Source of the DNA: a phage
Sequence record: PX962436.1
Length of the DNA: 48,115 nucleotides
Direction: 5' to 3' (one strand)
Of the stretch, positions 14,735 through 48,115 are shown in pieces. Position 1 is the stretch's first letter. Each line of letters opens with the position of its first letter. Under the pieces are notes generated by a model, which saw only the letters and a list, made by a program, of their open reading frames with translations, made no database searches and was not told where the DNA came from. Both the position numbers and the translations under genes were made by a program.

Positions 14735-15725
14735 TGCTATGCTCCTTATCCCAGTCGTGGATCAACTGAATAAAGGCTTGCTCCATGGTGGGATCGGGTT
14801 GCTCGTCGTTGGCCGACTGCGCTTTCAAATCATCCGGCGTGCCGCTGGCAATTAATTTCCCACGGTACACCAGGCCGATGCGGTCGCAATATTCTGCTTC
14901 ATCCATAAAGTGAGTGGTGACCATCACCGTGACGCCTTTCTCTACCATGCTGTTGATATGCAGCCAAAATTCGCGGCGGGTGAGGGGATCAACGCCGGAC
15001 GTTGGTTCGTCGAGAAACAGAATGTCCGGTTCATGCATCAGCGAACAGGCCAGCGCCAGCCGCTGTTTAAAACCTAATGGCAGTTCATCGGTCGCGTGGG
15101 AGGCGATACTTTTCAGGCCAAATGCCTCGCTCATACGGGAGATTTTTTCGTTCTGCGCCCGACCGCGTAAGCCATACACACCAGAGAAAAAGCGTAAATT
15201 CTGTTCGACCGTCAGGTTGCCGTAGAGCGAAAATTTTTGCGCCATATAGCCGAGATGCTGGCGCGCTTTACCGGAACTCTCTTTCAGATCCATCCCCAGC
15301 ACCAGCGCCTGGCCGGAAGTCGGCACCAGCAAACCGCACATCATCTTAAAGGTGGTCGATTTACCCGCGCCGTTTGGCCCCAGCAAACCAAAAATCTCCC
15401 CACGTTTAACGGCAAAGTTGACGTGATCGGTGGCGGCAAAATCACCAAATTTCTTGGTCAGTTCTTTCGCTTCGATCACCGTCTCGCCGGGTGTGCCTTC
15501 TACCGTATGCAATATTGCACCCAGCGGCGATTCTGAGGTTCCGGCACCACCCAGCAAATCAATAAACGCATCTTCAAAACGCGGCGTAGTTTCGTTGATG
15601 TTGATTTCCGGCATCCCGTCGGCATGGCGAATATCGTCTGGTGTGGCCTCTTTTTTGAGGATCAGACGTACCGATTTCCCCTGAATCATGCCGTCGCTGA
15701 CCTGCGGCAGTTTCAAGGCGCGGTG
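14727..15725 (-). pseudogene. ybhF: 5'-truncated ABC transporter ATPase: only the second ABC domain and linker remain; the 5' limit is approximate
   Basis: Minus-strand translation has one complete ABC domain (Walker A GPNGAGKST, signature, Walker B) preceded by the C-terminal tail of a first domain (FEDAFIDLLGG); the rest of the 523-codon ORF (15730..16298) is antisense to the methylase. Confidence 0.75.
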
Positions 15726-15729
15726 AAAC

Positions 15730-16655
15730 CCAACGGTTGGGACAATCAGTGGAAAGGGGACGAAGATTACCTGAAGTGGCTGGACCACTGTCTGGCTCAG
15801 TTCTGGCGGGTGCTGAAACCTGCCGGAAGCCTTTACCTGTTCTGTGGACATCGCCTCGCATCTGATATCGAGATCATGATGCGTGAACGTTTCAACGTTC
15901 TTAACCATATTATCTGGGCGAAGCCGTCCGGACGATGGAACGGGTGTAATAAAGAAAGTCTGCGCGCATATTTTCCCGCAACAGAACGCGTTCTGTTTGC
16001 TGAACATTACCAGGGACCATATCGCGGCAAAAGTGACGGCTATGCGGCAAAAGAAAGTCAACTCAAACAGCACATAATGGCACCGCTGATTTCGTATTTC
16101 AGGGATGCTCGTGCCGAACTGGGTATAACGGCAAAACAGATTGCCGAAGCCACTGGTAAGAAAAATATGGTTTCCCACTGGTTTGGTGCCAGTCAGTGGC
16201 AGTTGCCGAATGAGGCTGACTACCGGAAGTTGCAGGCACTGTTTTCCCGTATAGCGGCAGAGAAATTTCAGGAACAACAACTGGAACAACCACACCACCA
16301 GCTGGTGGCATCTTATGATTCACTGAATCGCAAATATTCTGAATTGCTGGATGAGTTTAAAACTCTCCGGCGCTATTTCTCCGTATCAGTTTCCGTGCCT
16401 TATACCGACGTCTGGACGCATAAACCCGTTCAGTTCTACCCGGGTAAACATCCGTGTGAGAAGCCCGCGGATATGCTCCGGCAAATAATCAGTGCCAGTA
16501 GTCGACAAGGCGATCTGGTTGCTGATTTCTTTATGGGATCCGGTTCCACAATAAAAGCGGCAATGGCGCTGGGGCGTCGGGCGTTAGGTGTTGAACTTGA
16601 GTCAGAGCGGTTTAATCAGACGGTGAAAGAGGTAAGTGAACTGGTGGGGAAATAA
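15730..16655 (+). pseudogene. phage N6-adenine/N4-cytosine DNA methyltransferase, 5'-truncated at the host-phage junction
   Basis: C-terminal FxGxG motif (DFFMGSGST) and W-rich region (GWDNQWKGDEDYLKWL) are present, but the DPPY catalytic motif expected just upstream is replaced by ybhF antisense sequence. Confidence 0.6.
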
Positions 16656-16731
16656 TTCTGGTGGCCACGTTGCGTGGCCTTTTTATTTCCAACACAGCAC
16701 CCGCAAATATCGCGAGGTGAGAGATGACGAA

Positions 16732-17067
16732 ATGCCTCATAACCCAAATACCTGGCCGGACTGGCTGGAGTTGTTTCAGAGCTGGTGGCGTGGAGATACG
16801 CCGCTGGGCGCAGTGATTATGTCGATTGTTATGGCTGGTTTGCGCATCGCCTATTTTGGCGGTGGTGGTGGCTGGAAGCGAAAAACGCTCGAGATTTTGC
16901 TATGTGGCGCTCTGACGTTGACCTTTGCATCCGCGCTTGAGTATGTCGGATGGCCTAAATCGCTTTCTGTTGCCATTGGTGGTGGGGTGGGGCTGATCGG
17001 TGTCGATGCTATTCGTGGGGCTGCAATGAGAGTAATCGGTAACAAGTTTGGTAGCTCGAAGGAGTAA
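16732..17067 (+). CDS. phage holin (not lambda S), about 112 aa with three predicted transmembrane segments
   Basis: Sits immediately upstream of the endolysin; hydrophobic segments and a GGGGG loop; GAGGTGA SD-like sequence before ATG 16732; the ORF-track start at 16636 overlaps the methylase end. Confidence 0.6.
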   Translation: MPHNPNTWPDWLELFQSWWRGDTPLGAVIMSIVMAGLRIAYFGGGGGWKRKTLEILLCGALTLTFASALEYVGWPKSLSVAIGGGVGLIGVDAIRGAAMRVIGNKFGSSKE

Positions 17068-17070
17068 TTT

Positions 17071-17547
17071 ATGCAGGTACTAAATTCCCAGCGTAAAGCT
17101 TTCCTGGATATGGTTGCATGGTCAGAAGGAACTGATAACGGACGTCAGAAAACCAGAAATCATGGTTATGACGTCATTGTAGGCGGAGAGCTATTCACTG
17201 ATTACTCCGATCACCCTCGCAAACTTGTCACGCTAAACCCAAAACTCAAATCAACAGGCGCCGGACGCTACCAGCTTCTTTCCCGTTGGTGGGATGCCTA
17301 CCGCAAGCAGCTTGGCCTGAAAGACTTCTCTCCGAAAAGTCAGGACGCTGTGGCATTGCAGCAGATTAAGGAGCGTGGCGCTTTACCTATGATTGATCGT
17401 GGTGATATCCGTCAGGCAATCGACCGTTGCAGCAATATCTGGGCTTCACTGCCGGGCGCTGGTTATGGTCAGTTCGAGCATAAGGCTGACAGCCTGATTG
17501 CAAAATTCAAAGAAGCGGGCGGAACGGTCAGAGAGATTGATGTATGA
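17071..17547 (+). CDS. R: endolysin (lambda R-type lytic transglycosylase); the first ~15 codons are non-lambda, the remainder matches lambda R
   Basis: Translation matches lambda R from QRKAFLDM to the end, but the N-terminus reads MQVLNS (lambda: MVEINN) and residue 15 is V (lambda: L). Confidence 0.9.
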
Positions 17548-20815: not shown

Positions 20816-24496
<3,681 letters not shown>

Positions 24497-24516
<20 letters not shown>

Positions 24517-25816
24517 TCTCCCGCATATTGCCAGCATGGCCTTTAATGAGCCGCTGATGCTTGAACCCGCCTATGCGCGGGTTTTCTTTTGTGCGCTTGC
24601 AGGCCAGCTTGGGATCAGCAGCCTGACGGATGCGGTGTCCGGCGACAGCCTGACTGCCCAGGAGGCACTCGCGACGCTGGCATTATCCGGTGATGATGAC
24701 GGACCACGACAGGCCCGCAGTTATCAGGTCATGAACGGCATCGCCGTGCTGCCGGTGTCCGGCACGCTGGTCAGCCGGACGCGGGCGCTGCAGCCGTACT
24801 CGGGGATGACCGGTTACAACGGCATTATCGCCCGTCTGCAACAGGCTGCCAGCGATCCGATGGTGGACGGCATTCTGCTCGATATGGACACGCCCGGCGG
24901 GATGGTGGCGGGGGCATTTGACTGCGCTGACATCATCGCCCGTGTGCGTGACATAAAACCGGTATGGGCGCTTGCCAACGACATGAACTGCAGTGCAGGT
25001 CAGTTGCTTGCCAGTGCCGCCTCCCGGCGTCTGGTCACGCAGACCGCCCGGACAGGCTCCATCGGCGTCATGATGGCTCACAGTAATTACGGTGCTGCGC
25101 TGGAGAAACAGGGTGTGGAAATCACGCTGATTTACAGCGGCAGCCATAAGGTGGATGGCAACCCCTACAGCCATCTTCCGGATGACGTCCGGGAGACACT
25201 GCAGTCCCGGATGGACGCAACCCGCCAGATGTTTGCGCAGAAGGTGTCGGCATATACCGGCCTGTCCGTGCAGGTTGTGCTGGATACCGAGGCTGCAGTG
25301 TACAGCGGTCAGGAGGCCATTGATGCCGGACTGGCTGATGAACTTGTTAACAGCACCGATGCGATCACCGTCATGCGTGATGCACTGGATGCACGTAAAT
25401 CCCGTCTCTCAGGAGGGCGAATGACCAAAGAGACTCAATCAACAACTGTTTCAGCCACTGCTTCGCAGGCTGACGTTACTGACGTGGTGCCAGCGACGGA
25501 GGGCGAGAACGCCAGCGCGGCGCAGCCGGACGTGAACGCGCAGATCACCGCAGCGGTTGCGGCAGAAAACAGCCGCATTATGGGGATACTCAACTGTGAG
25601 GAGGCTCACGGACGCGAAGAACAGGCACGCGTGCTGGCAGAAACCCCCGGTATGACCGTGAAAACGGCCCGCCGCATTCTGGCCGCAGCACCACAGAGTG
25701 CACAGGCGCGCAGTGACACTGCGCTGGATCGTCTGATGCAGGGGGCACCGGCACCGCTGGCTGCAGGTAACCCGGCATCTGATGCCGTTAACGATTTGCT
25801 GAACACACCAGTGTAA
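24497..25816 (+). CDS. C: head maturation protease/scaffold C (GTG start)
   Basis: 439 codons from GTG 24497 (MTAELRNLPHIASMAF); the ORF-track start at 24362 is an upstream extension. Confidence 0.85.
25211..25816 (+). CDS. Nu3: scaffolding protein Nu3, in-frame internal start within C
   Basis: Met at C codon 239, at the lambda Nu3 map position. Confidence 0.7.
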   Translation: MDATRQMFAQKVSAYTGLSVQVVLDTEAAVYSGQEAIDAGLADELVNSTDAITVMRDALDARKSRLSGGRMTKETQSTTVSATASQADVTDVVPATEGENASAAQPDVNAQITAAVAAENSRIMGILNCEEAHGREEQARVLAETPGMTVKTARRILAAAPQSAQARSDTALDRLMQGAPAPLAAGNPASDAVNDLLNTPV

Positions 25817-25825
25817 GGGATGTTT

Positions 25826-26158
25826 ATGACGAGCAAAGAAACCTTTACCCATTACCAGCCGCAGGGCAACAGTGACCCGGCTCATACCGCAACCGCGCCC
25901 GGCGGATTGAGTGCGAAAGCGCCTGCAATGACCCCGCTGATGCTGGACACCTCCAGCCGTAAGCTGGTTGCGTGGGATGGCACCACCGACGGTGCTGCCG
26001 TTGGCATTCTTGCGGTTGCTGCTGACCAGACCAGCACCACGCTGACGTTCTACAAGTCCGGCACGTTCCGTTATGAGGATGTGCTCTGGCCGGAGGCTGC
26101 CAGCGACGAGACGAAAAAACGGACCGCGTTTGCCGGAACGGCAATCAGCATCGTTTAA
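25826..26158 (+). CDS. D: head decoration protein D
   Basis: 110 aa, [20 protein letters not shown]. Confidence 0.9.
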
Positions 26159-40935: not shown

Positions 40936-41311
40936 CCGGAACGCCAACAGCACCAACCGCGCTCAGGGGAACAAACAATACCCAGATTGCGAACACCGCT
41001 TTTGTACTGGCCGCGATTGCAGATGTTATCGACGCGTCACCTGACGCACTGAATACGCTGAATGAACTGGCCGCAGCGCTCGGGAATGATCCAGATTTTG
41101 CTACCACCATGACTAACGCGCTTGCGGGTAAACAACCGAAGAATGCGACACTGACGGCGCTGGCAGGGCTTTCCACGGCGAAAAATAAATTACCGTATTT
41201 TGCGGAAAATGATGCCGCCAGCCTGACTGAACTGACTCAGGTTGGCAGGGATATTCTGGCAAAAAATTCCGTTGCAGATGTTCTTGAATACCTTGGGGCC
41301 GGTGAGAATTC
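40847..41311 (+). pseudogene. stf: side tail fibre second frame (lambda orf-314), 3'-truncated at the EcoRI deletion junction; start approximate
   Basis: Frame continuing TGTPTAPTALRGTNNTQIANTAFVLAAIAD...EYLGAGENS, then unrelated sequence after GAATTC. Confidence 0.75.
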
Positions 41312-42175
41312 TAAGCGGAGATCGCCTAGTGATTTTAAACTATTGCTGGCAGCATTCTTGAGTCCAATATAAAAGTATTGTGTACCTTTTGCTGGGTCAG
41401 GTTGTTCTTTAGGAGGAGTAAAAGGATCAAATGCACTAAACGAAACTGAAACAAGCGATCGAAAATATCCCTTTGGGATTCTTGACTCGATAAGTCTATT
41501 ATTTTCAGAGAAAAAATATTCATTGTTTTCTGGGTTGGTGATTGCACCAATCATTCCATTCAAAATTGTTGTTTTACCACACCCATTCCGCCCGATAAAA
41601 GCATGAATGTTCGTGCTGGGCATAGAATTAACCGTCACCTCAAAAGGTATAGTTAAATCACTGAATCCGGGAGCACTTTTTCTATTAAATGAAAAGTGGA
41701 AATCTGACAATTCTGGCAAACCATTTAACACACGTGCGAACTGTCCATGAATTTCTGAAAGAGTTACCCCTCTAAGTAATGAGGTGTTAAGGACGCTTTC
41801 ATTTTCAATGTCGGCTAATCGATTTGGCCATACTACTAAATCCTGAATAGCTTTAAGAAGGTTATGTTTAAAACCATCGCTTAATTTGCTGAGATTAACA
41901 TAGTAGTCAATGCTTTCACCTAAGGAAAAAAACATTTCAGGGAGTTGACTGAATTTTTTATCTATTAATGAATAAGTGCTTACTTCTTCTTTTTGACCTA
42001 CAAAACCAATTTTAACATTTCCGATATCGCATTTTTCACCATGCTCATCAAAGACAGTAAGATAAAACATTGTAACAAAGGAATAGTCATTCCAACCATC
42101 TGCTCGTAGGAATGCCTTATTTTTTTCTACTGCAGGAATATACCCGCCTCTTTCAATAACACTAAACTCCAACAT
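41237..42175 (-). pseudogene. ea59: ea59 N-terminal fragment (about 290 codons, P-loop ATPase with Walker A GRNGCGKTT) fused to a 22-codon out-of-context tail
   Basis: Minus-strand ORF starting MLEFSVIERGGYIP; lambda-derived part ends at the EcoRI site (…GDLRLEF), after which the ORF reads antisense stf to a stop. Confidence 0.75.
41306..41311. other. deletion junction at a single EcoRI site (lambda EcoRI-B fragment, 21226..26104, absent)
   Basis: GAATTC sits at the lambda 21226 position by map offset; sequence to its right is antisense ea59, which begins at lambda 26104. Confidence 0.8.
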
Positions 42176-42679
42176 ATAGTAACCCTTAATTTTATTAAAA
42201 TAACCGCAATTTATTTGGCGGCAACACAGGATCTCTCTTTTAAGTTACTCTCTATTACATACGTTTTCCATCTAAAAATTAGTAGTATTGAACTTAACGG
42301 GGCATCGTATTGTAGTTTTCCATATTTAGCTTTCTGCTTCCTTTTGGATAACCCACTGTTATTCATGTTGCATGGTGCACTGTTTATACCAACGATATAG
42401 TCTATTAATGCATATATAGTATCGCCGAACGATTAGCTCTTCAGGCTTCTGAAGAAGCGTTTCAAGTACTAATAAGCCGATAGATAGCCACGGACTTCGT
42501 AGCCATTTTTCATAAGTGTTAACTTCCGCTCCTCGCTCATAACAGACATTCACTACAGTTATGGCGGAAAGGTATGCATGCTGGGTGTGGGGAAGTCGTG
42601 AAAGAAAAGAAGTCAGCTGCGTCGTTTGACATCACTGCTATCTTCTTACTGGTTATGCAGGTCGTAGTGGGTGGCACAC

Positions 42680-42775
42680 AAAGCTTTGCACTGGATTGCG
42701 AGGCTTTGTGCTTCTCTGGAGTGCGACAGGTTTGATGACAAAAAATTAGCGCAAGAAGACAAAAATCACCTTGCG
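42680..42775 (-). terminator. lambda sib/tI retroregulator region with an intrinsic terminator hairpin (leftward transcripts)
   Basis: On the minus strand, stem AGCGCAAGGTGATTTTTGTCTTCTTGCGCT followed by AATTTTTTG; located at the lambda b-side of att. Confidence 0.5.
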
Positions 42776-42779
42776 CTAA

Positions 42780-42925
42780 TGCTCTGTTACAGGTCACTAA
42801 TACCATCTAAGTAGTTGATTCATAGTGACTGCATATGTTGTGTTTTACAGTATTATGTAGTCTGTTTTTTATGCAAAATCTAATTTAATATATTGATATT
42901 TATATCATTTTACGTTTCTCGTTCA
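42780..42925. promoter_or_regulatory. attP P-arm (Int arm-type P1/P2, IHF, Xis and Fis binding region)
   Basis: CTCTGTTACAGGTCACTAATACCATCTAAGTAGTTGATTCATAGTGACTGCATATG...TTTACGTTTCTCGTTCA matches the lambda P-arm. Confidence 0.85.
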
Positions 42926-42940
42926 GCTTTTTTATACTAA
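42926..42940. other. attR core (phage P-arm / bacterial B'-arm junction), common core GCTTTTTTATACTAA
   Basis: 15-bp att core flanked on the left by lambda P-arm and on the right by chromosomal TTGAGCGAAACG leading to ybhB. Confidence 0.85.
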
Positions 42941-43030
42941 TTTGAGCGAAACGGGAAGGTAAAAAGACAAAAAGTTGTTTTTAATACCTTTAAGTGATAC
43001 CAGATGGCATTGCGCCATCTGGCAGAGTGA

Positions 43031-43507
43031 TTAACTAAACATCGCAGTAATCGAGGCGCTTGCCAGAGAGTGGAAATGAACGTTAAACCCGACCATCGCG
43101 CCGCTGGCACCTTCATCGACATCAATACGTTCTATATCCAGCGCGTGAACGGTAAAAATGTAGCGATGAGTTTCGCCTTTCGGCGGTGCTGCGCCATCGT
43201 ACCCGGTTTTACCAAAGTCGGTACGCGTCTGCAAAACGCCGTCTGGCATTGCTACCAGACCAGAGCCAAACCCTTGCGGTAATACGCGGGTATCAGCGGG
43301 TAAGTTAACAACTACCCAGTGCCACCAGCCGGAGCCGGTTGGCGCATCCGGGTCGTAGCAGGTGACAACAAAACTTTTCGTTCCCGCAGGAACATCATCC
43401 CACGCCAGATGCGGTGAAATATTATCGCCATCGTAACCCATGCCGTTAAAGACATGACGATGCGGCAATTTATCGCCATCGCGCAGATCGTTACTGATGA
43501 GTTTCAT
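43031..43507 (-). CDS. ybhB: PEBP/YbhB family protein
   Basis: 158 aa ORF at the K-12 position between attB and bioA. Confidence 0.9.
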   Translation of the reverse strand: MKLISNDLRDGDKLPHRHVFNGMGYDGDNISPHLAWDDVPAGTKSFVVTCYDPDAPTGSGWWHWVVVNLPADTRVLPQGFGSGLVAMPDGVLQTRTDFGKTGYDGAAPPKGETHRYIFTVHALDIERIDVDEGASGAMVGFNVHFHSLASASITAMFS

Positions 43508-43565
43508 GAACCCTCCTTTCTTGTTTGCAGAAAGTGTAGCCAGAAACCCTCACGCGGACTTCTCG

Positions 43566-44855
43566 TTATTGGCAAAAAAATGTTTCATCCTGTACCGCGC
43601 GGTTAACCGCTGCGGTCAGACGCTGCAACTGTTGCGGGAGAATAATATAGGGCGGCATCAGGTAAATCAGTTTGCCAAAAGGCCGGATCCAGACACCCTG
43701 TTCGACAAAGAATTTTTGCAGCGCCGCCATATTCACCGGACGAGTGGTTTCGACTACGCCGATTGCCCCCAGCACGCGCACATCGGCAACCATTTCGGCA
43801 TCACGGGCGGGGGCAAGTTGCTCGCGCAGCTGTACTTCAATAGCCGCCACCTGTTGCTGCCAGTCGCCAGATTCGAGAATCGCCAGGCTGGCGTTTGCTG
43901 CCGCGCAGGCCAGCGGATTGCCCATAAAAGTTGGCCCATGCATAAAGCAGCCGGCTTCGCCGTTACTGATGGTTTCTGCAACCTCGCGCGTGGTAAGTGT
44001 GGCGGAAAGGGTCATTGTGCCGCCGGTTAAGGCTTTACCGAGGCACAAAATGTCCGGCGCGATTTCTGCATATTCACAGGCAAACAGTTTGCCGGTACGA
44101 CCAAATCCGGTGGCGATCTCGTCGGCAATCAGCAAGATACCTTCGCGATCGCACATTTTGCGGATTCGTTTTAACCATTCCGGATGGTACATGCGCATCC
44201 CGCCTGCGCCCTGGACAATCGGCTCAATGATCACCGCCGCGATTTCATGACGATGCGCCGCCATCAGGCGGGCAAAGCCCACCATATCGCGCTCATCCCA
44301 TTCGCCATCCATGCGGCTTTGCGGGGCGGGAGCAAACAGGTTTTCTGGCAGGTAGCCTTTCCACAGACTGTGCATTGAGTTATCCGGATCGCACACCGAC
44401 ATCGCGCCAAAGGTATCGCCATGATAACCATTGCGGAAGGTCAGAAAACGCTGGCGCGCTTCGCCTTTGGCTTGCCAGTACTGCAACGCCATTTTCATCG
44501 CCACTTCCACCGCTACGGAACCGGAGTCCGCGAGAAAAACGCACTCCAGCGGTTGCGGCGTCATCGCCACCAGTTTGCGGCACAGCTCAATGGCTGGCGC
44601 ATGGGTGATACCGCCAAACATCACATGCGACATGGCATCAATTTGCGACTTCATCGCCGCATTAAGCTGCGGGTGATTGTAGCCGTGGATCGCCGCCCAC
44701 CAGGACGACATACCGTCAACCAGGCGTCTGCCGTCAGACAAAATCAGCTCGCAACCTTCGGCGCTCACCACCGGATAAACCGGCAGAGGGGAGGTCATGG
44801 ATGTGTATGGGTGCCAGATATGGCGTTGGTCAAAGGCAAGATCGTCCGTTGTCAT
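43566..44855 (-). CDS. bioA: adenosylmethionine-8-amino-7-oxononanoate aminotransferase (429 aa)
   Basis: Start at [20 protein letters not shown]; the ORF-track start at 44966 is an upstream extension running through the bio operator. Confidence 0.9.
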
Positions 44856-47875: not shown

Positions 47876-48115
47876 ACGTTATTTTGTCACCGGAACGGAT
47901 ACCGAAGTGGGGAAAACTGTCGCCAGTTGTGCACTTTTACAAGCCGCAAAGGCAGCAGGCTACCGGACGGCAGGTTATAAACCGGTCGCCTCTGGCAGCG
48001 AAAAGACCCCGGAAGGTTTACGCAATAGCGACGCGCTGGCGTTACAGCGCAACAGCAGCCTGCAGCTGGATTACGCAACAGTAAATCCTTACACCTTCGC
48101 AGAACCCACTTCGCC
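47868..48115 (+). CDS. bioD: dethiobiotin synthetase, 5' portion (GTG start, 82 codons); continues at window position 1
   Basis: [17 protein letters not shown]... through YTFAEPTSP at the window end. Confidence 0.9.

What the first reader, a model, noticed from the sequence alone, without database searches (positions are those of the whole stretch)
41312..42175. Ea59 N-terminal region is a P-loop NTPase of uncertain function
Ea59 belongs to the lambda accessory b-region. The retained portion carries a canonical Walker A motif about 200 residues into the protein, after a non-ATPase N-terminal domain. An ATPase fused to nuclease or effector domains is a common architecture in phage-encoded defence or exclusion proteins, so a defence role is a hypothesis only. 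In this window the protein is truncated and probably inactive.
Basis: inference. Interest (0 to 1): 0.4.

Follow-up and report, generated by a model that had tools for sequence, protein, structure and literature searches.

The report
Truncated lambda Ea59 nuclease-ATPase remnant
This is the dead front half of phage lambda's ea59 gene, cut off by a cloning-vector deletion that also removed its partner nuclease gene. The intact gene pair resembles a known kind of bacterial anti-phage system, so the feature is real but ordinary.

Summary
ORF 41237-42175 (-) encodes 312 aa. Residues 1-290 are identical to lambda Ea59, with a Walker A motif (G195RNGCGKTT) after a ~155-residue non-ATPase N-terminal domain.

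The truncation is man-made. A single EcoRI site (41306-41311) joins lambda 21226 to 26104, the EcoRI-B deletion carried by the DE3 prophage. It removes Ea59 residues 291-525 (signature motif, Walker B, H-loop, C-terminal helices) and all of ea31, ea47 and tfa. The fragment should be inert.

Full-length Ea59 has no fused nuclease domain. It is an ABC-type ATPase, and its effector is the separate, translationally coupled gene ea31, an HNH nuclease. An Ea31 homologue lay immediately downstream in all 80 genome loci examined (69 non-lambda) and in Streptomyces and Clostridium plasmids.

PADLOC matches the pair end to end as candidate system PDC-M01, and Ea59 also matches one PtuA (Septu) model. 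Foldseek ranks solved PtuA structures first. Ea31 resembles PtuB only at the HNH motif.

The function is not uncharacterised. ea59 has been called the lambda endonuclease gene since 1982, and a 1994 paper title reports an ea59-like phage-resistance gene in S. lividans.

Verdict: already known, low interest.

The parts
41237..42175 (-). Whole ORF of the truncated ea59 (312 aa plus stop). It is annotated 'ea59, C-terminal extended due to deletion' in the DE3 record and 'hypothetical protein' in BL21(DE3) RefSeq.
41711..42175 (-). Ea59 N-terminal domain (residues 1-155). It is not an ATPase domain and is specific to the family.
   Evidence: No Pfam hit. It forms a separate domain in the AF2 model. 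It hits only PDC-M01A, PDLC00282 and PDC-S34 in PADLOC. Against 1.84 billion representatives it gave 1341 hits; 149 of the best 150 carry it at their N-terminus (one 600-aa protein at residues 110-247), the full-length ones being about 500-560 aa.
41306..41710 (-). Retained first part of the ABC ATPase core (residues 156-290): N-terminal beta strands, Walker A, and a conserved PPxEQPDP segment that may be the Q-loop.
41567..41593 (-). Walker A / P-loop, G195-R-N-G-C-G-K-T-T203.
   Evidence: invariant in the family
41306..41311 (.). Single EcoRI site (GAATTC) that forms the deletion junction, joining lambda 21226 to lambda 26104. The 4878-bp EcoRI-B fragment is missing.
   Evidence: The lambda EcoRI sites lie in ORF314 and Ea59 (PMC2966988).
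41237..41305 (-). Read-through tail: 22 non-native codons plus the stop, read antisense to the orf-314 (tail fibre) remnant.
41109..41372 (+). Remnant of lambda orf-314 (side tail fibre). It is truncated by the same deletion and reads through into antisense ea59 sequence.
42926..42940 (.). att core (GCTTTTTTATACTAA) of attR. Beyond it lie ybhB and bioA, so ea59' sits at the extreme right end of the prophage-derived DNA.

Best explanation
The feature is the 5' 55% of lambda ea59, left behind by the engineered EcoRI-B deletion (lambda 21226-26104) of the vector from which the DE3 prophage derives.

The intact system. Intact Ea59 is the ATPase subunit of a two-gene module, ea59-ea31. It has a family-specific N-terminal domain followed by an OLD/PtuA-type ABC ATPase. 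The ATPase motifs are Walker A at 195-203, signature S365-S-G-H, Walker B/D-loop LVLFDEPEVHLHP at 387-399 and an H-loop at H425. A helical insert and C-terminal helices complete the protein. Ea31, the downstream translationally coupled gene, is an HNH (CxxC...DH...N...CxxCN) nuclease.

Inferred mechanism. By analogy with Septu PtuAB, Ea59 oligomerises through its ATP sites and holds Ea31 through its C-terminal helices. Nucleotide binding or hydrolysis then gates nucleic-acid cleavage. This would be the ATP-dependent lambda endonuclease described in 1982. In bacteria the cassette most probably acts as an anti-phage or anti-mobile-DNA system. In lambda it is an acquired accessory cassette, probably expressed in lytic growth.

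In this window. The protein keeps only the N-terminal domain and Walker A. It lacks the signature motif, Walker B, H-loop and C-terminal helices, and its nuclease partner gene is deleted. It can neither hydrolyse ATP nor recruit a nuclease, so it is an inert relic.

Shown: identity, junction, lost motifs, absent partner, family membership by profile, and conservation of the gene pair.
Inferred: complex formation, ATP gating, the defence role, and the inactivity of the fragment.
For: Identity and junction:
- Residues 1-290 are 100% identical to lambda Ea59. The junction is one EcoRI site with lambda flanks at 21226 and 26104.
- The region is 100% identical to DE3 (EU078592) and to phage DN1.
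- 91 of 5426 complete E. coli genomes carry the same junction; the 12 listed are BL21/DE3-type laboratory strains.

Lost motifs:
- Walker B LVLFDE starts at residue 387. S365, S366, G367, H368, D391, E392 and H425 are invariant in the family, and all lie beyond residue 290.

Partner gene:
- ea31 (lambda 24509-25399) lies inside the deleted interval.
- An Ea31 homologue lies directly downstream on the same strand in 80 of 80 genome loci. Of these, 69 are non-lambda, at 46-69% Ea59 identity and from many phyla.
- The same holds on a Streptomyces plasmid (BLASTP 3e-31) and a C. perfringens plasmid (1e-23).
- The HNH residues C108, C111, D121, H122, N138, C143, C146 and N147 are invariant in 35 Ea31 homologues.

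Family:
- Ea59 matches PADLOC PDC-M01A (3.9e-201, 2-507 of 510) and PtuA model PDLC00282 (5.4e-184, 3-518 of 520). Ea31 matches PDC-M01B (5.8e-113, 1-282 of 285).
- The fragment alone matches at 1.7e-95 and 2.3e-87.
- The Foldseek hits down to rank 43 for the Ea59 model are PtuA-containing retron I-A or Septu complexes, all with probability 1.00, including E. coli Septu 8eea and 8ee4.
- The closest solved structures by sequence include retron PtuA, an OLD-family nuclease and AriA.

Defence context:
- The commonest families among 112 immediate neighbours of non-lambda loci are type I restriction HsdR domains (5-9 members). YgjP, UvrD-type helicases, resolvases and M78 peptidases also recur.
- PDC systems were defined from genes embedded in BREX, DISARM and type I RM loci.
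- PDC-M01 is co-called with Septu in a B. cereus survey.

Precedent:
- Zhou et al. 1994 reported a phage-resistance gene similar to the lambda ea59 endonuclease gene. A 54%-identical homologue still carries the name 'phage Hau3 resistance protein'.

Septu properties used for the analogy:
- Both the ATPase and the HNH motifs are required for defence (PMC13096335).
- The PtuA C-terminal extension binds PtuB, the complex nicks DNA, and ATP inhibits the stand-alone system (PMC12819146).

Foreign origin in lambda:
- GC is 36-38% for ea59/ea31 against 56% for the J-lom-stf region.
- Among 50,697 phage records, only lambda-type records and two metagenomic contigs encode an Ea59 relative.
Against: - No experiment seen here shows that lambda Ea59-Ea31 excludes any phage. 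The b region is dispensable, and a CRISPRi screen scored ea59, ea31 and ea47 as non-essential.
- PDC-M01 is an untested candidate class.
- Ea31 is not demonstrably a PtuB. Its profile matches PtuB only over the HNH motif (E = 0.027). Its C-terminal half hits only PDC-M01B models. Its AF2 model finds no PDB neighbour at all (best E = 5.4).
- Foldseek TM-scores to PtuA are low (0.23-0.33 normalised to Ea59). The ranking may reflect mainly the shared ABC core.
- PADLOC 'PtuA' model PDLC00282 is probably just the Ea59 clade filed under that name, because it also matches the family-specific N-terminal domain.
- In a lysogen ea59 is separated from pL by integration. No promoter-like site above chance lies upstream of it. 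A classical prophage-encoded defence role is therefore not obvious.
- I could not read the 1982 or 1994 papers. The link between the purified enzyme and ea59/ea31 rests on titles, RefSeq naming and my own memory.
Confidence: 0.8

Rival explanations
1. Ea59 is a single-chain ATPase-nuclease. On this view the lost C-terminal part would have been the nuclease or effector domain.
For: Some sources name homologues 'ATP-dependent nuclease' or 'ATP-dependent endonuclease of the OLD family'. An OLD-family structure (6p74) is among the sequence hits. One record annotates Ea59 as 'nuclease'.
Against: Pfam finds no Toprim or other nuclease domain in residues 291-525, only the second half of the ABC fold (AAA_21 and AAA_15 up to residue ~430). 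The model shows a helical insert, the Walker B and H-loop strands and terminal helices. The OLD match covers only the Walker B region. A dedicated HNH gene is invariably adjacent.
Confidence: 0.05
2. Ea59-Ea31 is a lambda DNA-metabolism enzyme acting in the phage's own lytic cycle (recombination, host or competitor DNA processing). It would have no immunity function, and its resemblance to Septu would be only a shared enzymatic chassis.
For: The Ea proteins are delayed-early pL products made during lytic growth (textbook lambda knowledge, from my own memory). No promoter-like site above chance lies upstream of ea59. The enzyme was found as an endonuclease, described as single-stranded-DNA-dependent in PMC5241400. 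No exclusion phenotype for the b region appears in the papers searched.
Against: The cassette is nearly absent from phages. It is widespread in bacterial chromosomes and plasmids, often next to type I restriction genes. It is AT-rich and looks foreign in lambda. It is dispensable for lambda growth. A homologue was cloned as a phage-resistance gene.
Confidence: 0.15
3. The ORF encodes an ABC-transporter ATP-binding subunit, as annotated in phage O276 ('putative transporter, ABC binding cassette-like').
For: There are weak ABC_tran and NCBIfam transporter hits around the P-loop, and the O276 annotation says so.
Against: All transporter scores are far below the curated cut-offs (for example 37.8 against 254.85 bits) and are confined to ~30-60 residues around Walker A. 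No permease gene is adjacent. The DEPExHLHP motif and the invariable HNH partner place it with the OLD/PtuA-type soluble ABC ATPases.
Confidence: 0.01
4. The truncated 312-aa product is still functional, for example as a stand-alone sensor domain or a dominant-negative nucleotide-binding protein.
For: The ORF is intact with its native start and upstream region. The complete N-terminal domain and P-loop are retained. RefSeq annotates it as a protein rather than a pseudogene.
Against: The cut falls inside helix 283-299 of the ABC fold. It removes every residue needed for ATP hydrolysis and dimer signalling. Its only known partner gene is deleted. The deletion is a laboratory construct with no selection behind it. 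In 149 of the best 150 hits to the N-terminal domain it sits at the N-terminus (one 600-aa protein carries it at residues 110-247); the full-length ones are ~500-560 aa, and the shorter ones look like contig-end fragments.
Confidence: 0.03

Closest known systems
Full-length lambda Ea59 (525 aa) with Ea31 (296 aa): the lambda b-region 'ATP-dependent endonuclease' genes
   Same: Residues 1-290 are identical, with the same start and the same upstream DNA as far as att.
   Different: Residues 291-525 are replaced by 22 junk codons. ea31, ea47, tfa and most of orf-314 are deleted.
PADLOC candidate system PDC-M01 (A = ATPase, B = HNH protein)
   Same: Lambda Ea59 and Ea31 match the A and B profiles end to end (3.9e-201 and 5.8e-113). 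The gene order and tight coupling are the same in every locus examined. The association with type I restriction loci seen here matches how PDC systems were discovered.
   Different: PDC-M01 is an untested bioinformatic candidate. The window holds only 57% of the A gene (profile positions 2-294 of 510) and no B gene.
Septu (PtuA ABC ATPase + PtuB HNH nuclease), including the PtuAB effector of type I-A retrons (Eco7/Ec78, Ec83)
   Same: Both are a two-gene ABC-ATPase plus HNH-nuclease operon. Ea59 matches one PADLOC PtuA model end to end. PtuA structures are the top Foldseek hits and among the top sequence hits in the PDB. The DEPE-HLHP Walker B/D-loop is shared. PDC-M01 loci are co-called as Septu by current tools.
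   Different: Ea59 has an extra ~155-residue N-terminal domain absent from the solved PtuAs, and TM-scores are only 0.23-0.33 (normalised to Ea59). Ea31 is about 80 residues longer than PtuB, resembles it only at the HNH motif (E = 0.027) and has no structural match. The NCBIfam PtuA equivalog score is 48 against a cut-off of 500. No reverse transcriptase is adjacent.
Streptomyces lividans 66 phage-resistance gene (Zhou, Deng, Hopwood, Kieser 1994; apparently the source of the database name 'phage Hau3 resistance protein')
   Same: The authors described it as similar to the lambda ea59 endonuclease gene and as conferring phage resistance (title). Streptomyces plasmids carry full-length Ea59 homologues (35-41% identity) with an Ea31-like gene directly downstream.
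   Different: I could not read the paper or retrieve that exact gene. Whether it needs an Ea31-like partner was not checked.
Other ABC-ATPase nuclease defence systems: OLD, Gabija GajA, PARIS AriA/AriB
   Same: They share the ABC ATPase chassis, with weak sequence hits at Walker B and the H-loop (6p74, 8ux9).
   Different: Their nuclease is a Toprim domain, fused or separate. Ea59 has no Toprim domain and pairs with an HNH protein instead.

Membership tests
Septu (PtuA/PtuB) | The A subunit is an ABC-type ATPase with Walker A, signature motif, Walker B/D-loop and H-loop. | tested here: met
   Met for full-length lambda Ea59: G195RNGCGKTT, S365SGH, LVLFDEPEVHLHP at 387-399, and H425, all invariant in 34 homologues; AAA_21 and AAA_15 above their cut-offs. 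In the window fragment only Walker A survives.
Septu (PtuA/PtuB) | The A subunit matches PtuA profiles. | tested here: inconclusive
   PADLOC PDLC00282 'PtuA' matches at 5.4e-184 end to end. That model also covers the Ea59-specific N-terminal domain, so it is probably the Ea59 clade itself. The next best PtuA models give only 8.7e-25 or weaker and are partial. NCBIfam PtuA NF041760 scores 48.4 bits against a cut-off of 500.
Septu (PtuA/PtuB) | The A subunit has the PtuA fold. | tested here: inconclusive
   The Foldseek hits down to rank 43 are PtuA-containing complexes (probability 1.00, E down to 3.9e-09), but TMq is 0.23-0.33 and rmsd is 12-21 A.
Septu (PtuA/PtuB) | An HNH nuclease gene lies adjacent, in the same operon. 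| tested here: met
   Met in lambda (overlapping ATGA), in 80 of 80 genome loci and on two plasmids from other phyla. In the window the gene is deleted.
Septu (PtuA/PtuB) | The B subunit is homologous to PtuB beyond the HNH motif, including the C-terminal domain that binds PtuA. | tested here: not met
   The profile matches PtuB at E = 0.027 over ~50 residues only. The C-terminal half hits only PDC-M01B models. The Ea31 model has no PDB neighbour, though its HNH segment was modelled with low confidence.
Septu (PtuA/PtuB) | The system confers anti-phage protection that depends on the ATPase and HNH motifs. | not testable with these tools
   Shown for E. coli Septu in PMC13096335. For the Ea59 family there is only the 1994 S. 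lividans title.
PADLOC PDC-M01 | A and B profile matches lie in adjacent genes. | tested here: met
   Met for lambda: 3.9e-201 (2-507 of 510) and 5.8e-113 (1-282 of 285). In the window, the A match covers 2-294 of 510 at 1.7e-95 and B is absent.
OLD-family nucleases | A Toprim nuclease domain follows the ABC ATPase. | tested here: not met
   There is no Toprim hit in Pfam. The similarity to 6p74 is limited to Walker B.
Type I-A retron effector PtuAB | A reverse transcriptase and ncRNA lie upstream. | tested here: not met
   Upstream of lambda ea59 is the att region. No reverse-transcriptase family appears among the 25 commonest neighbour families.
ABC transporter nucleotide-binding subunit | Scores pass the family cut-offs and a permease partner is present. 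| tested here: not met
   All transporter scores are far below their cut-offs, and there is no permease neighbour.

The most novel reading that the evidence does not exclude
Lambda Ea59-Ea31, the ATP-dependent endonuclease purified in 1982, is the first biochemically characterised member of the widespread but untested Septu-like family PDC-M01. On this reading it is a working nucleic-acid-targeting conflict system that lambda captured from a bacterial defence island and uses during lytic growth against co-infecting phages or other mobile DNA. The family-specific N-terminal domain, which is what survives in this window, would be its trigger sensor.
Probability: 0.4. Interest if true: 0.5.

Novelty: already known. 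Interest (0 to 1): 0.2.

Why it matters
For this window it matters little. The feature is a laboratory scar: 91 of 5426 complete E. coli genomes carry the same junction, and the 12 listed are BL21/DE3-type laboratory strains.

Its practical value is for annotation. RefSeq calls the ORF a 'hypothetical protein', but it is better described as a truncated pseudogene of ea59.

The wider point is a link I did not find stated in any paper I could search. Two accessory genes of the best-studied phage belong to a Septu-like ATPase-HNH family. Defence-finding tools list that family only as an untested candidate, yet old biochemistry (1982) and an old resistance phenotype (1994) already exist for it. 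Wild-type lambda, not DE3, would therefore be a convenient system for testing that family.

Tried and rejected
- The structure search for Ea31 gave nothing (best E = 5.4), so it neither supports nor excludes a PtuB fold. The HNH segment of the model had pLDDT 55-65.
- The promoter and terminator scan of 41000-43600 found nothing above shuffled expectation upstream of ea59. No statement about expression can be made from it.
- I could not obtain Benchimol et al. 1982, Li et al. 2024 (the Septu structure paper), Casjens and Hendrix 2015, or Zhou et al. 2004. Searches for 'Hau3 resistance' and for lambda 'b region' plus 'ATP-dependent endonuclease' found nothing.
- No held paper links ea59 to Septu or to defence.
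- ea47 has no PADLOC hit, only a sub-threshold Pfam hit, and no homologue in any non-lambda locus. I do not count it as part of the module.
- I first assumed the window was a plain BL21(DE3) chromosome slice because its coordinates coincide with the DE3 record. That was wrong for the left 17 kb.
- The first attempts to scan neighbour proteins failed on a coordinate error and a size limit.
Full report
WHAT IS THERE

The minus strand carries an ORF from 42175 to 41237 (312 aa). Translating it alongside lambda J02459 shows that residues 1-290 are identical to lambda Ea59 (525 aa). After residue 290 the ORF reads 22 unrelated codons and stops.

The break is a single GAATTC at 41306-41311. DNA to its left is identical to lambda up to position 21226, inside orf-314. 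DNA to its right is identical to lambda from 26104, inside ea59. These are the first two EcoRI sites of lambda, which lie in ORF314 and Ea59 (PMC2966988). The window therefore carries a clean deletion of the 4878-bp EcoRI-B fragment.

The same junction occurs in the DE3 prophage record, whose annotators wrote 'C-terminal extended due to deletion'. It also occurs in phage DN1 and in 91 of 5426 complete E. coli genomes; the 12 listed are BL21/DE3-type laboratory strains. It is a vector-construction scar.

THE OBSERVATION

The Walker A motif GRNGCGKTT sits at residues 195-203 (41567-41593). Eight of its nine residues are invariant across 34 homologues of 52-87% identity.

The preceding ~155 residues give no Pfam hit. 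In an AlphaFold2 model of full-length Ea59 (pLDDT 82.3, pTM 0.80) they form a separate beta-plus-helix domain ahead of the ABC core strands.

I searched this N-terminal domain against 1.84 billion representative proteins. It gave 1341 hits. In 149 of the best 150 the domain sits at the N-terminus; one 600-aa protein carries it at residues 110-247. The full-length hits are about 500-560 aa, and the shorter ones look like contig-end fragments. It is a hallmark of this clade rather than a widely shuffled module.

WHAT THE DELETION REMOVED

The deleted part of the protein holds everything an ABC ATPase needs beyond the P-loop:
- the signature motif (S365-S-G-H368);
- Walker B and the D-loop (LVLFDEPEVHLHP, 387-399);
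- the H-loop (H425).

All of these are invariant in the family. The helical insert (283-381) and the C-terminal helices (478-521) are also lost. The cut falls inside helix 283-299.

The deleted DNA also contained ea31, ea47, tfa (orf-194) and most of orf-314.

WHAT FULL-LENGTH Ea59 IS

Pfam finds only ABC-type ATPase families (AAA_21 1.3e-16, AAA_15 8e-13) and no nuclease domain.

The effector is the next gene. The ea31 start overlaps the ea59 stop (ATGA). Ea31 carries an HNH zinc-finger motif, C108-x2-C111 ... D121-H122 ... N138 ... C143-x2-C146-N147, which is invariant in 35 homologues.

The pairing is conserved as far as I could look:
- All 80 genome loci retrieved with an Ea59 profile have an Ea31 homologue immediately downstream on the same strand, usually 0-20 nt away. 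Of these, 69 are non-lambda, at 46-69% Ea59 identity, and span Gamma-, Beta- and Alphaproteobacteria, Desulfobacterota, cyanobacteria, Saccharibacteria and Flavobacteriaceae.
- A Streptomyces plasmid and a Clostridium perfringens plasmid carry 35-37%-identical ATPases. Each is followed by an overlapping gene that aligns with Ea31 over essentially its whole length in Streptomyces and from residue 80 onward in C. perfringens (3e-31 and 1e-23).
- ea47 is not part of the module. It appears only in lambda copies.

FAMILY PLACEMENT

PADLOC profiles match Ea59 end to end as PDC-M01A (3.9e-201) and as one 'PtuA' model, PDLC00282 (5.4e-184). Ea31 matches PDC-M01B end to end (5.8e-113). The window fragment alone scores 1.7e-95 and 2.3e-87.

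PDC systems are untested candidates. They were derived from genes embedded in BREX, DISARM and type I restriction loci (bioRxiv 10.1101/2024.01.29.577857). In a B. cereus survey, PDC-M01 calls coincided with Septu calls (PMC11811056).

My own neighbour analysis agrees with that origin. Among 112 genes flanking 58 non-lambda loci, the commonest families are type I restriction HsdR domains (5-9 members). YgjP, UvrD-type helicases, resolvases and M78 peptidases also occur. Six cassettes start within 3 nt of the end of a ~1020-aa upstream ORF of HsdR size.

Structure comparison gives a consistent but weaker signal. The Foldseek hits for the Ea59 model down to rank 43 are PtuA-containing retron I-A or E. 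coli Septu complexes, with probability 1.00. Among sequence hits in the PDB, the best are PtuA of retrons Ec78 and Ec83, an OLD-family nuclease and AriA.

The case for calling the pair 'Septu' is nevertheless incomplete:
- TM-scores are only 0.23-0.33 (normalised to Ea59).
- PDLC00282 also covers the Ea59-specific N-terminal domain, so it is probably this same clade under another label.
- The NCBIfam PtuA equivalog is far below its cut-off (48 against 500 bits).
- Ea31 resembles PtuB only around the HNH motif (E = 0.027).
- The Ea31 C-terminal half hits only PDC-M01B models.
- The Ea31 model has no neighbour in the PDB. Its HNH segment was poorly modelled.

I therefore describe the pair as Septu-like in architecture and as a member of PDC-M01, not as a demonstrated Septu.

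HOW IT MOST LIKELY WORKS

For Septu and retron PtuAB, published work establishes several points. Both the ATPase and the HNH motifs are needed for defence (PMC13096335). A pair of PtuA C-terminal extensions clamps the PtuB C-terminal domain. The complex nicks supercoiled DNA, and ATP inhibits the stand-alone system (PMC12819146). tRNA-Tyr is cleaved in vivo.

By analogy, I infer that Ea59 oligomerises through its ATP sites, holds Ea31 by its C-terminal helices, and gates the HNH nuclease by nucleotide state. The N-terminal domain is a candidate sensor or substrate-binding module.

This fits the older description of a lambda-specified endonuclease:
- Benchimol, Lucko and Becker 1982; PMC5241400 describes it as single-stranded-DNA-dependent.
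- RefSeq has used 'ATP-dependent endonuclease' for ea59 (PMC10695390).
- Zhou et al. 1994 call ea59 'the endonuclease gene' and report a similar gene that confers phage resistance in S. lividans 66.
- One 54%-identical homologue still carries the name 'phage Hau3 resistance protein'.

From memory, and not checked here, the 1982 enzyme required ATP and mapped to ea31 and ea59.

In lambda the cassette looks acquired. Its GC content is 36-38% against 56% for the neighbouring J-lom-stf DNA. Among 50,697 phage records, only lambda-type genomes and two metagenomic contigs encode a relative.

What it does for lambda is unknown. The genes are dispensable. In the textbook view (my knowledge) they are delayed-early pL products, cut off from pL in the integrated prophage. 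The consensus scan found no promoter-like site above chance upstream of ea59. A role during lytic growth, such as competition with co-infecting elements, is as plausible as classical lysogen immunity.

IN THIS WINDOW

The product has a P-loop but no catalytic glutamate, no signature motif, no H-loop and no partner-binding helices. There is no ea31 gene. It should neither hydrolyse ATP nor activate a nuclease. I take it to be an inert relic. This is an inference from sequence and was not tested.

NOVELTY AND SCORE

- The truncated gene, its origin and the ATPase nature of Ea59 are already recorded in databases.
- Profiles covering Ea59 and Ea31 already exist in PADLOC.
- A resistance phenotype for an ea59-like gene was published in 1994.
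- I did not find any searchable paper that explicitly ties lambda Ea59-Ea31, and the 1982 enzyme, to the Septu-like PDC-M01 family.

That link is a useful lead for wild-type lambda, but it is not a property of this window. Interest is 0.2.

OUTSIDE THE FINDING

The window is not a simple BL21(DE3) chromosome slice. Only 17089-46505 is colinear with BL21(DE3), at 99.97% identity. Its last base and first base are adjacent positions within bioD, so the 48,115 bases are a circular permutation.

The content is roughly 26 kb of lambda/DE3 late region (R, Rz, bor, cos, A-J, ea59', attR) and roughly 22 kb of E. coli DNA (ybhB and bio through uvrB and moa to a truncated ybhF). At 15624-17067 there is a Dam-like methyltransferase gene and a holin-like gene from a different lambdoid phage. 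No immunity, replication, int, lacI or T7 RNA polymerase genes are present.

It resembles the DE3-derived bio-transducing phage DN1 but carries more bacterial DNA.

Noticed in passing
window 1-48115 (junctions at 48115/1, ~15620, 17089, 20080/20081): The window is a circular permutation, not a plain chromosome slice. Position 48115 and position 1 are adjacent bases of bioD, as shown by comparison with phage DN1 (MF374379). The content is about 26 kb of DE3 late region with one cos and about 22 kb of E. coli DNA (ybhB-bio-uvrB-moa-clsB-ybhRS-ybhF'). There are no immunity, replication, int, lacI or T7 RNA polymerase genes. It looks like a lambda-sized defective bio-uvrB-moa transducing genome derived from DE3. 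No record in the phage collection covers it.
   Followed up: partly
window 15624-17088: A Dam-like DNA methyltransferase ORF (15624-16655, +) and a holin-like ORF (16636-17067, +) are about 92-94% identical to other lambdoid phages (mEp460, SfV). They abut a 5'-truncated ybhF on one side. On the other side they switch to DE3-identical sequence at 17089, at the start of R (17071-17547). This suggests homologous recombination between DE3 and another lambdoid element in the lysis cassette.
   Followed up: partly
L004-L012, L048, L055 (genome contigs); plasmid records NZ_CP082339, NZ_CP104294, NZ_CP068597: Sequences 99.8-100% identical to lambda ea59-ea31 appear in assemblies of unrelated organisms, often as ~48.4-48.5 kb contigs or 'plasmids'. 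The organisms include Chromatiales, Shewanella, Pseudomonas, Streptomyces, Fusobacterium, Paenibacillus, Stenotrophomonas and Salmonella. There is also a 'Campylobacter phage CJLB-4'. These are almost certainly lambda control-DNA contamination.
   Followed up: no
window 41109-41372 (+): The orf-314 tail-fibre remnant is truncated by the same EcoRI deletion. It gains its own read-through tail by reading antisense into ea59, so the two artificial C-terminal extensions overlap on opposite strands.
   Followed up: yes
L015, L020, L030, L033, L036, L077 (upstream ORF ends within 3 nt of the Ea59-homologue start): In several bacteria the Ea59-Ea31 cassette begins directly after a ~1020-aa ORF. Type I restriction HsdR families are the commonest neighbour hit, so the cassette appears to be embedded in or appended to type I R-M operons.
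   Followed up: partly
L001 4187-5419 (lambda ea47): ea47 has very low GC (31%), no PADLOC hit and only a sub-threshold Pfam hit (vRNAP_dom, E = 0.034). No homologue was found next to any non-lambda Ea59-Ea31 pair. It is an unrelated orphan in the same AT-rich block.
   Followed up: partly
window 41237-42175; NC_012971.2 ECD_RS03990: RefSeq annotates the truncated ea59 in BL21(DE3) as an intact 'hypothetical protein' (WP_000889232.1), whereas the neighbouring tail-fibre remnant is flagged as a pseudogene. This is an annotation inconsistency.
   Followed up: no
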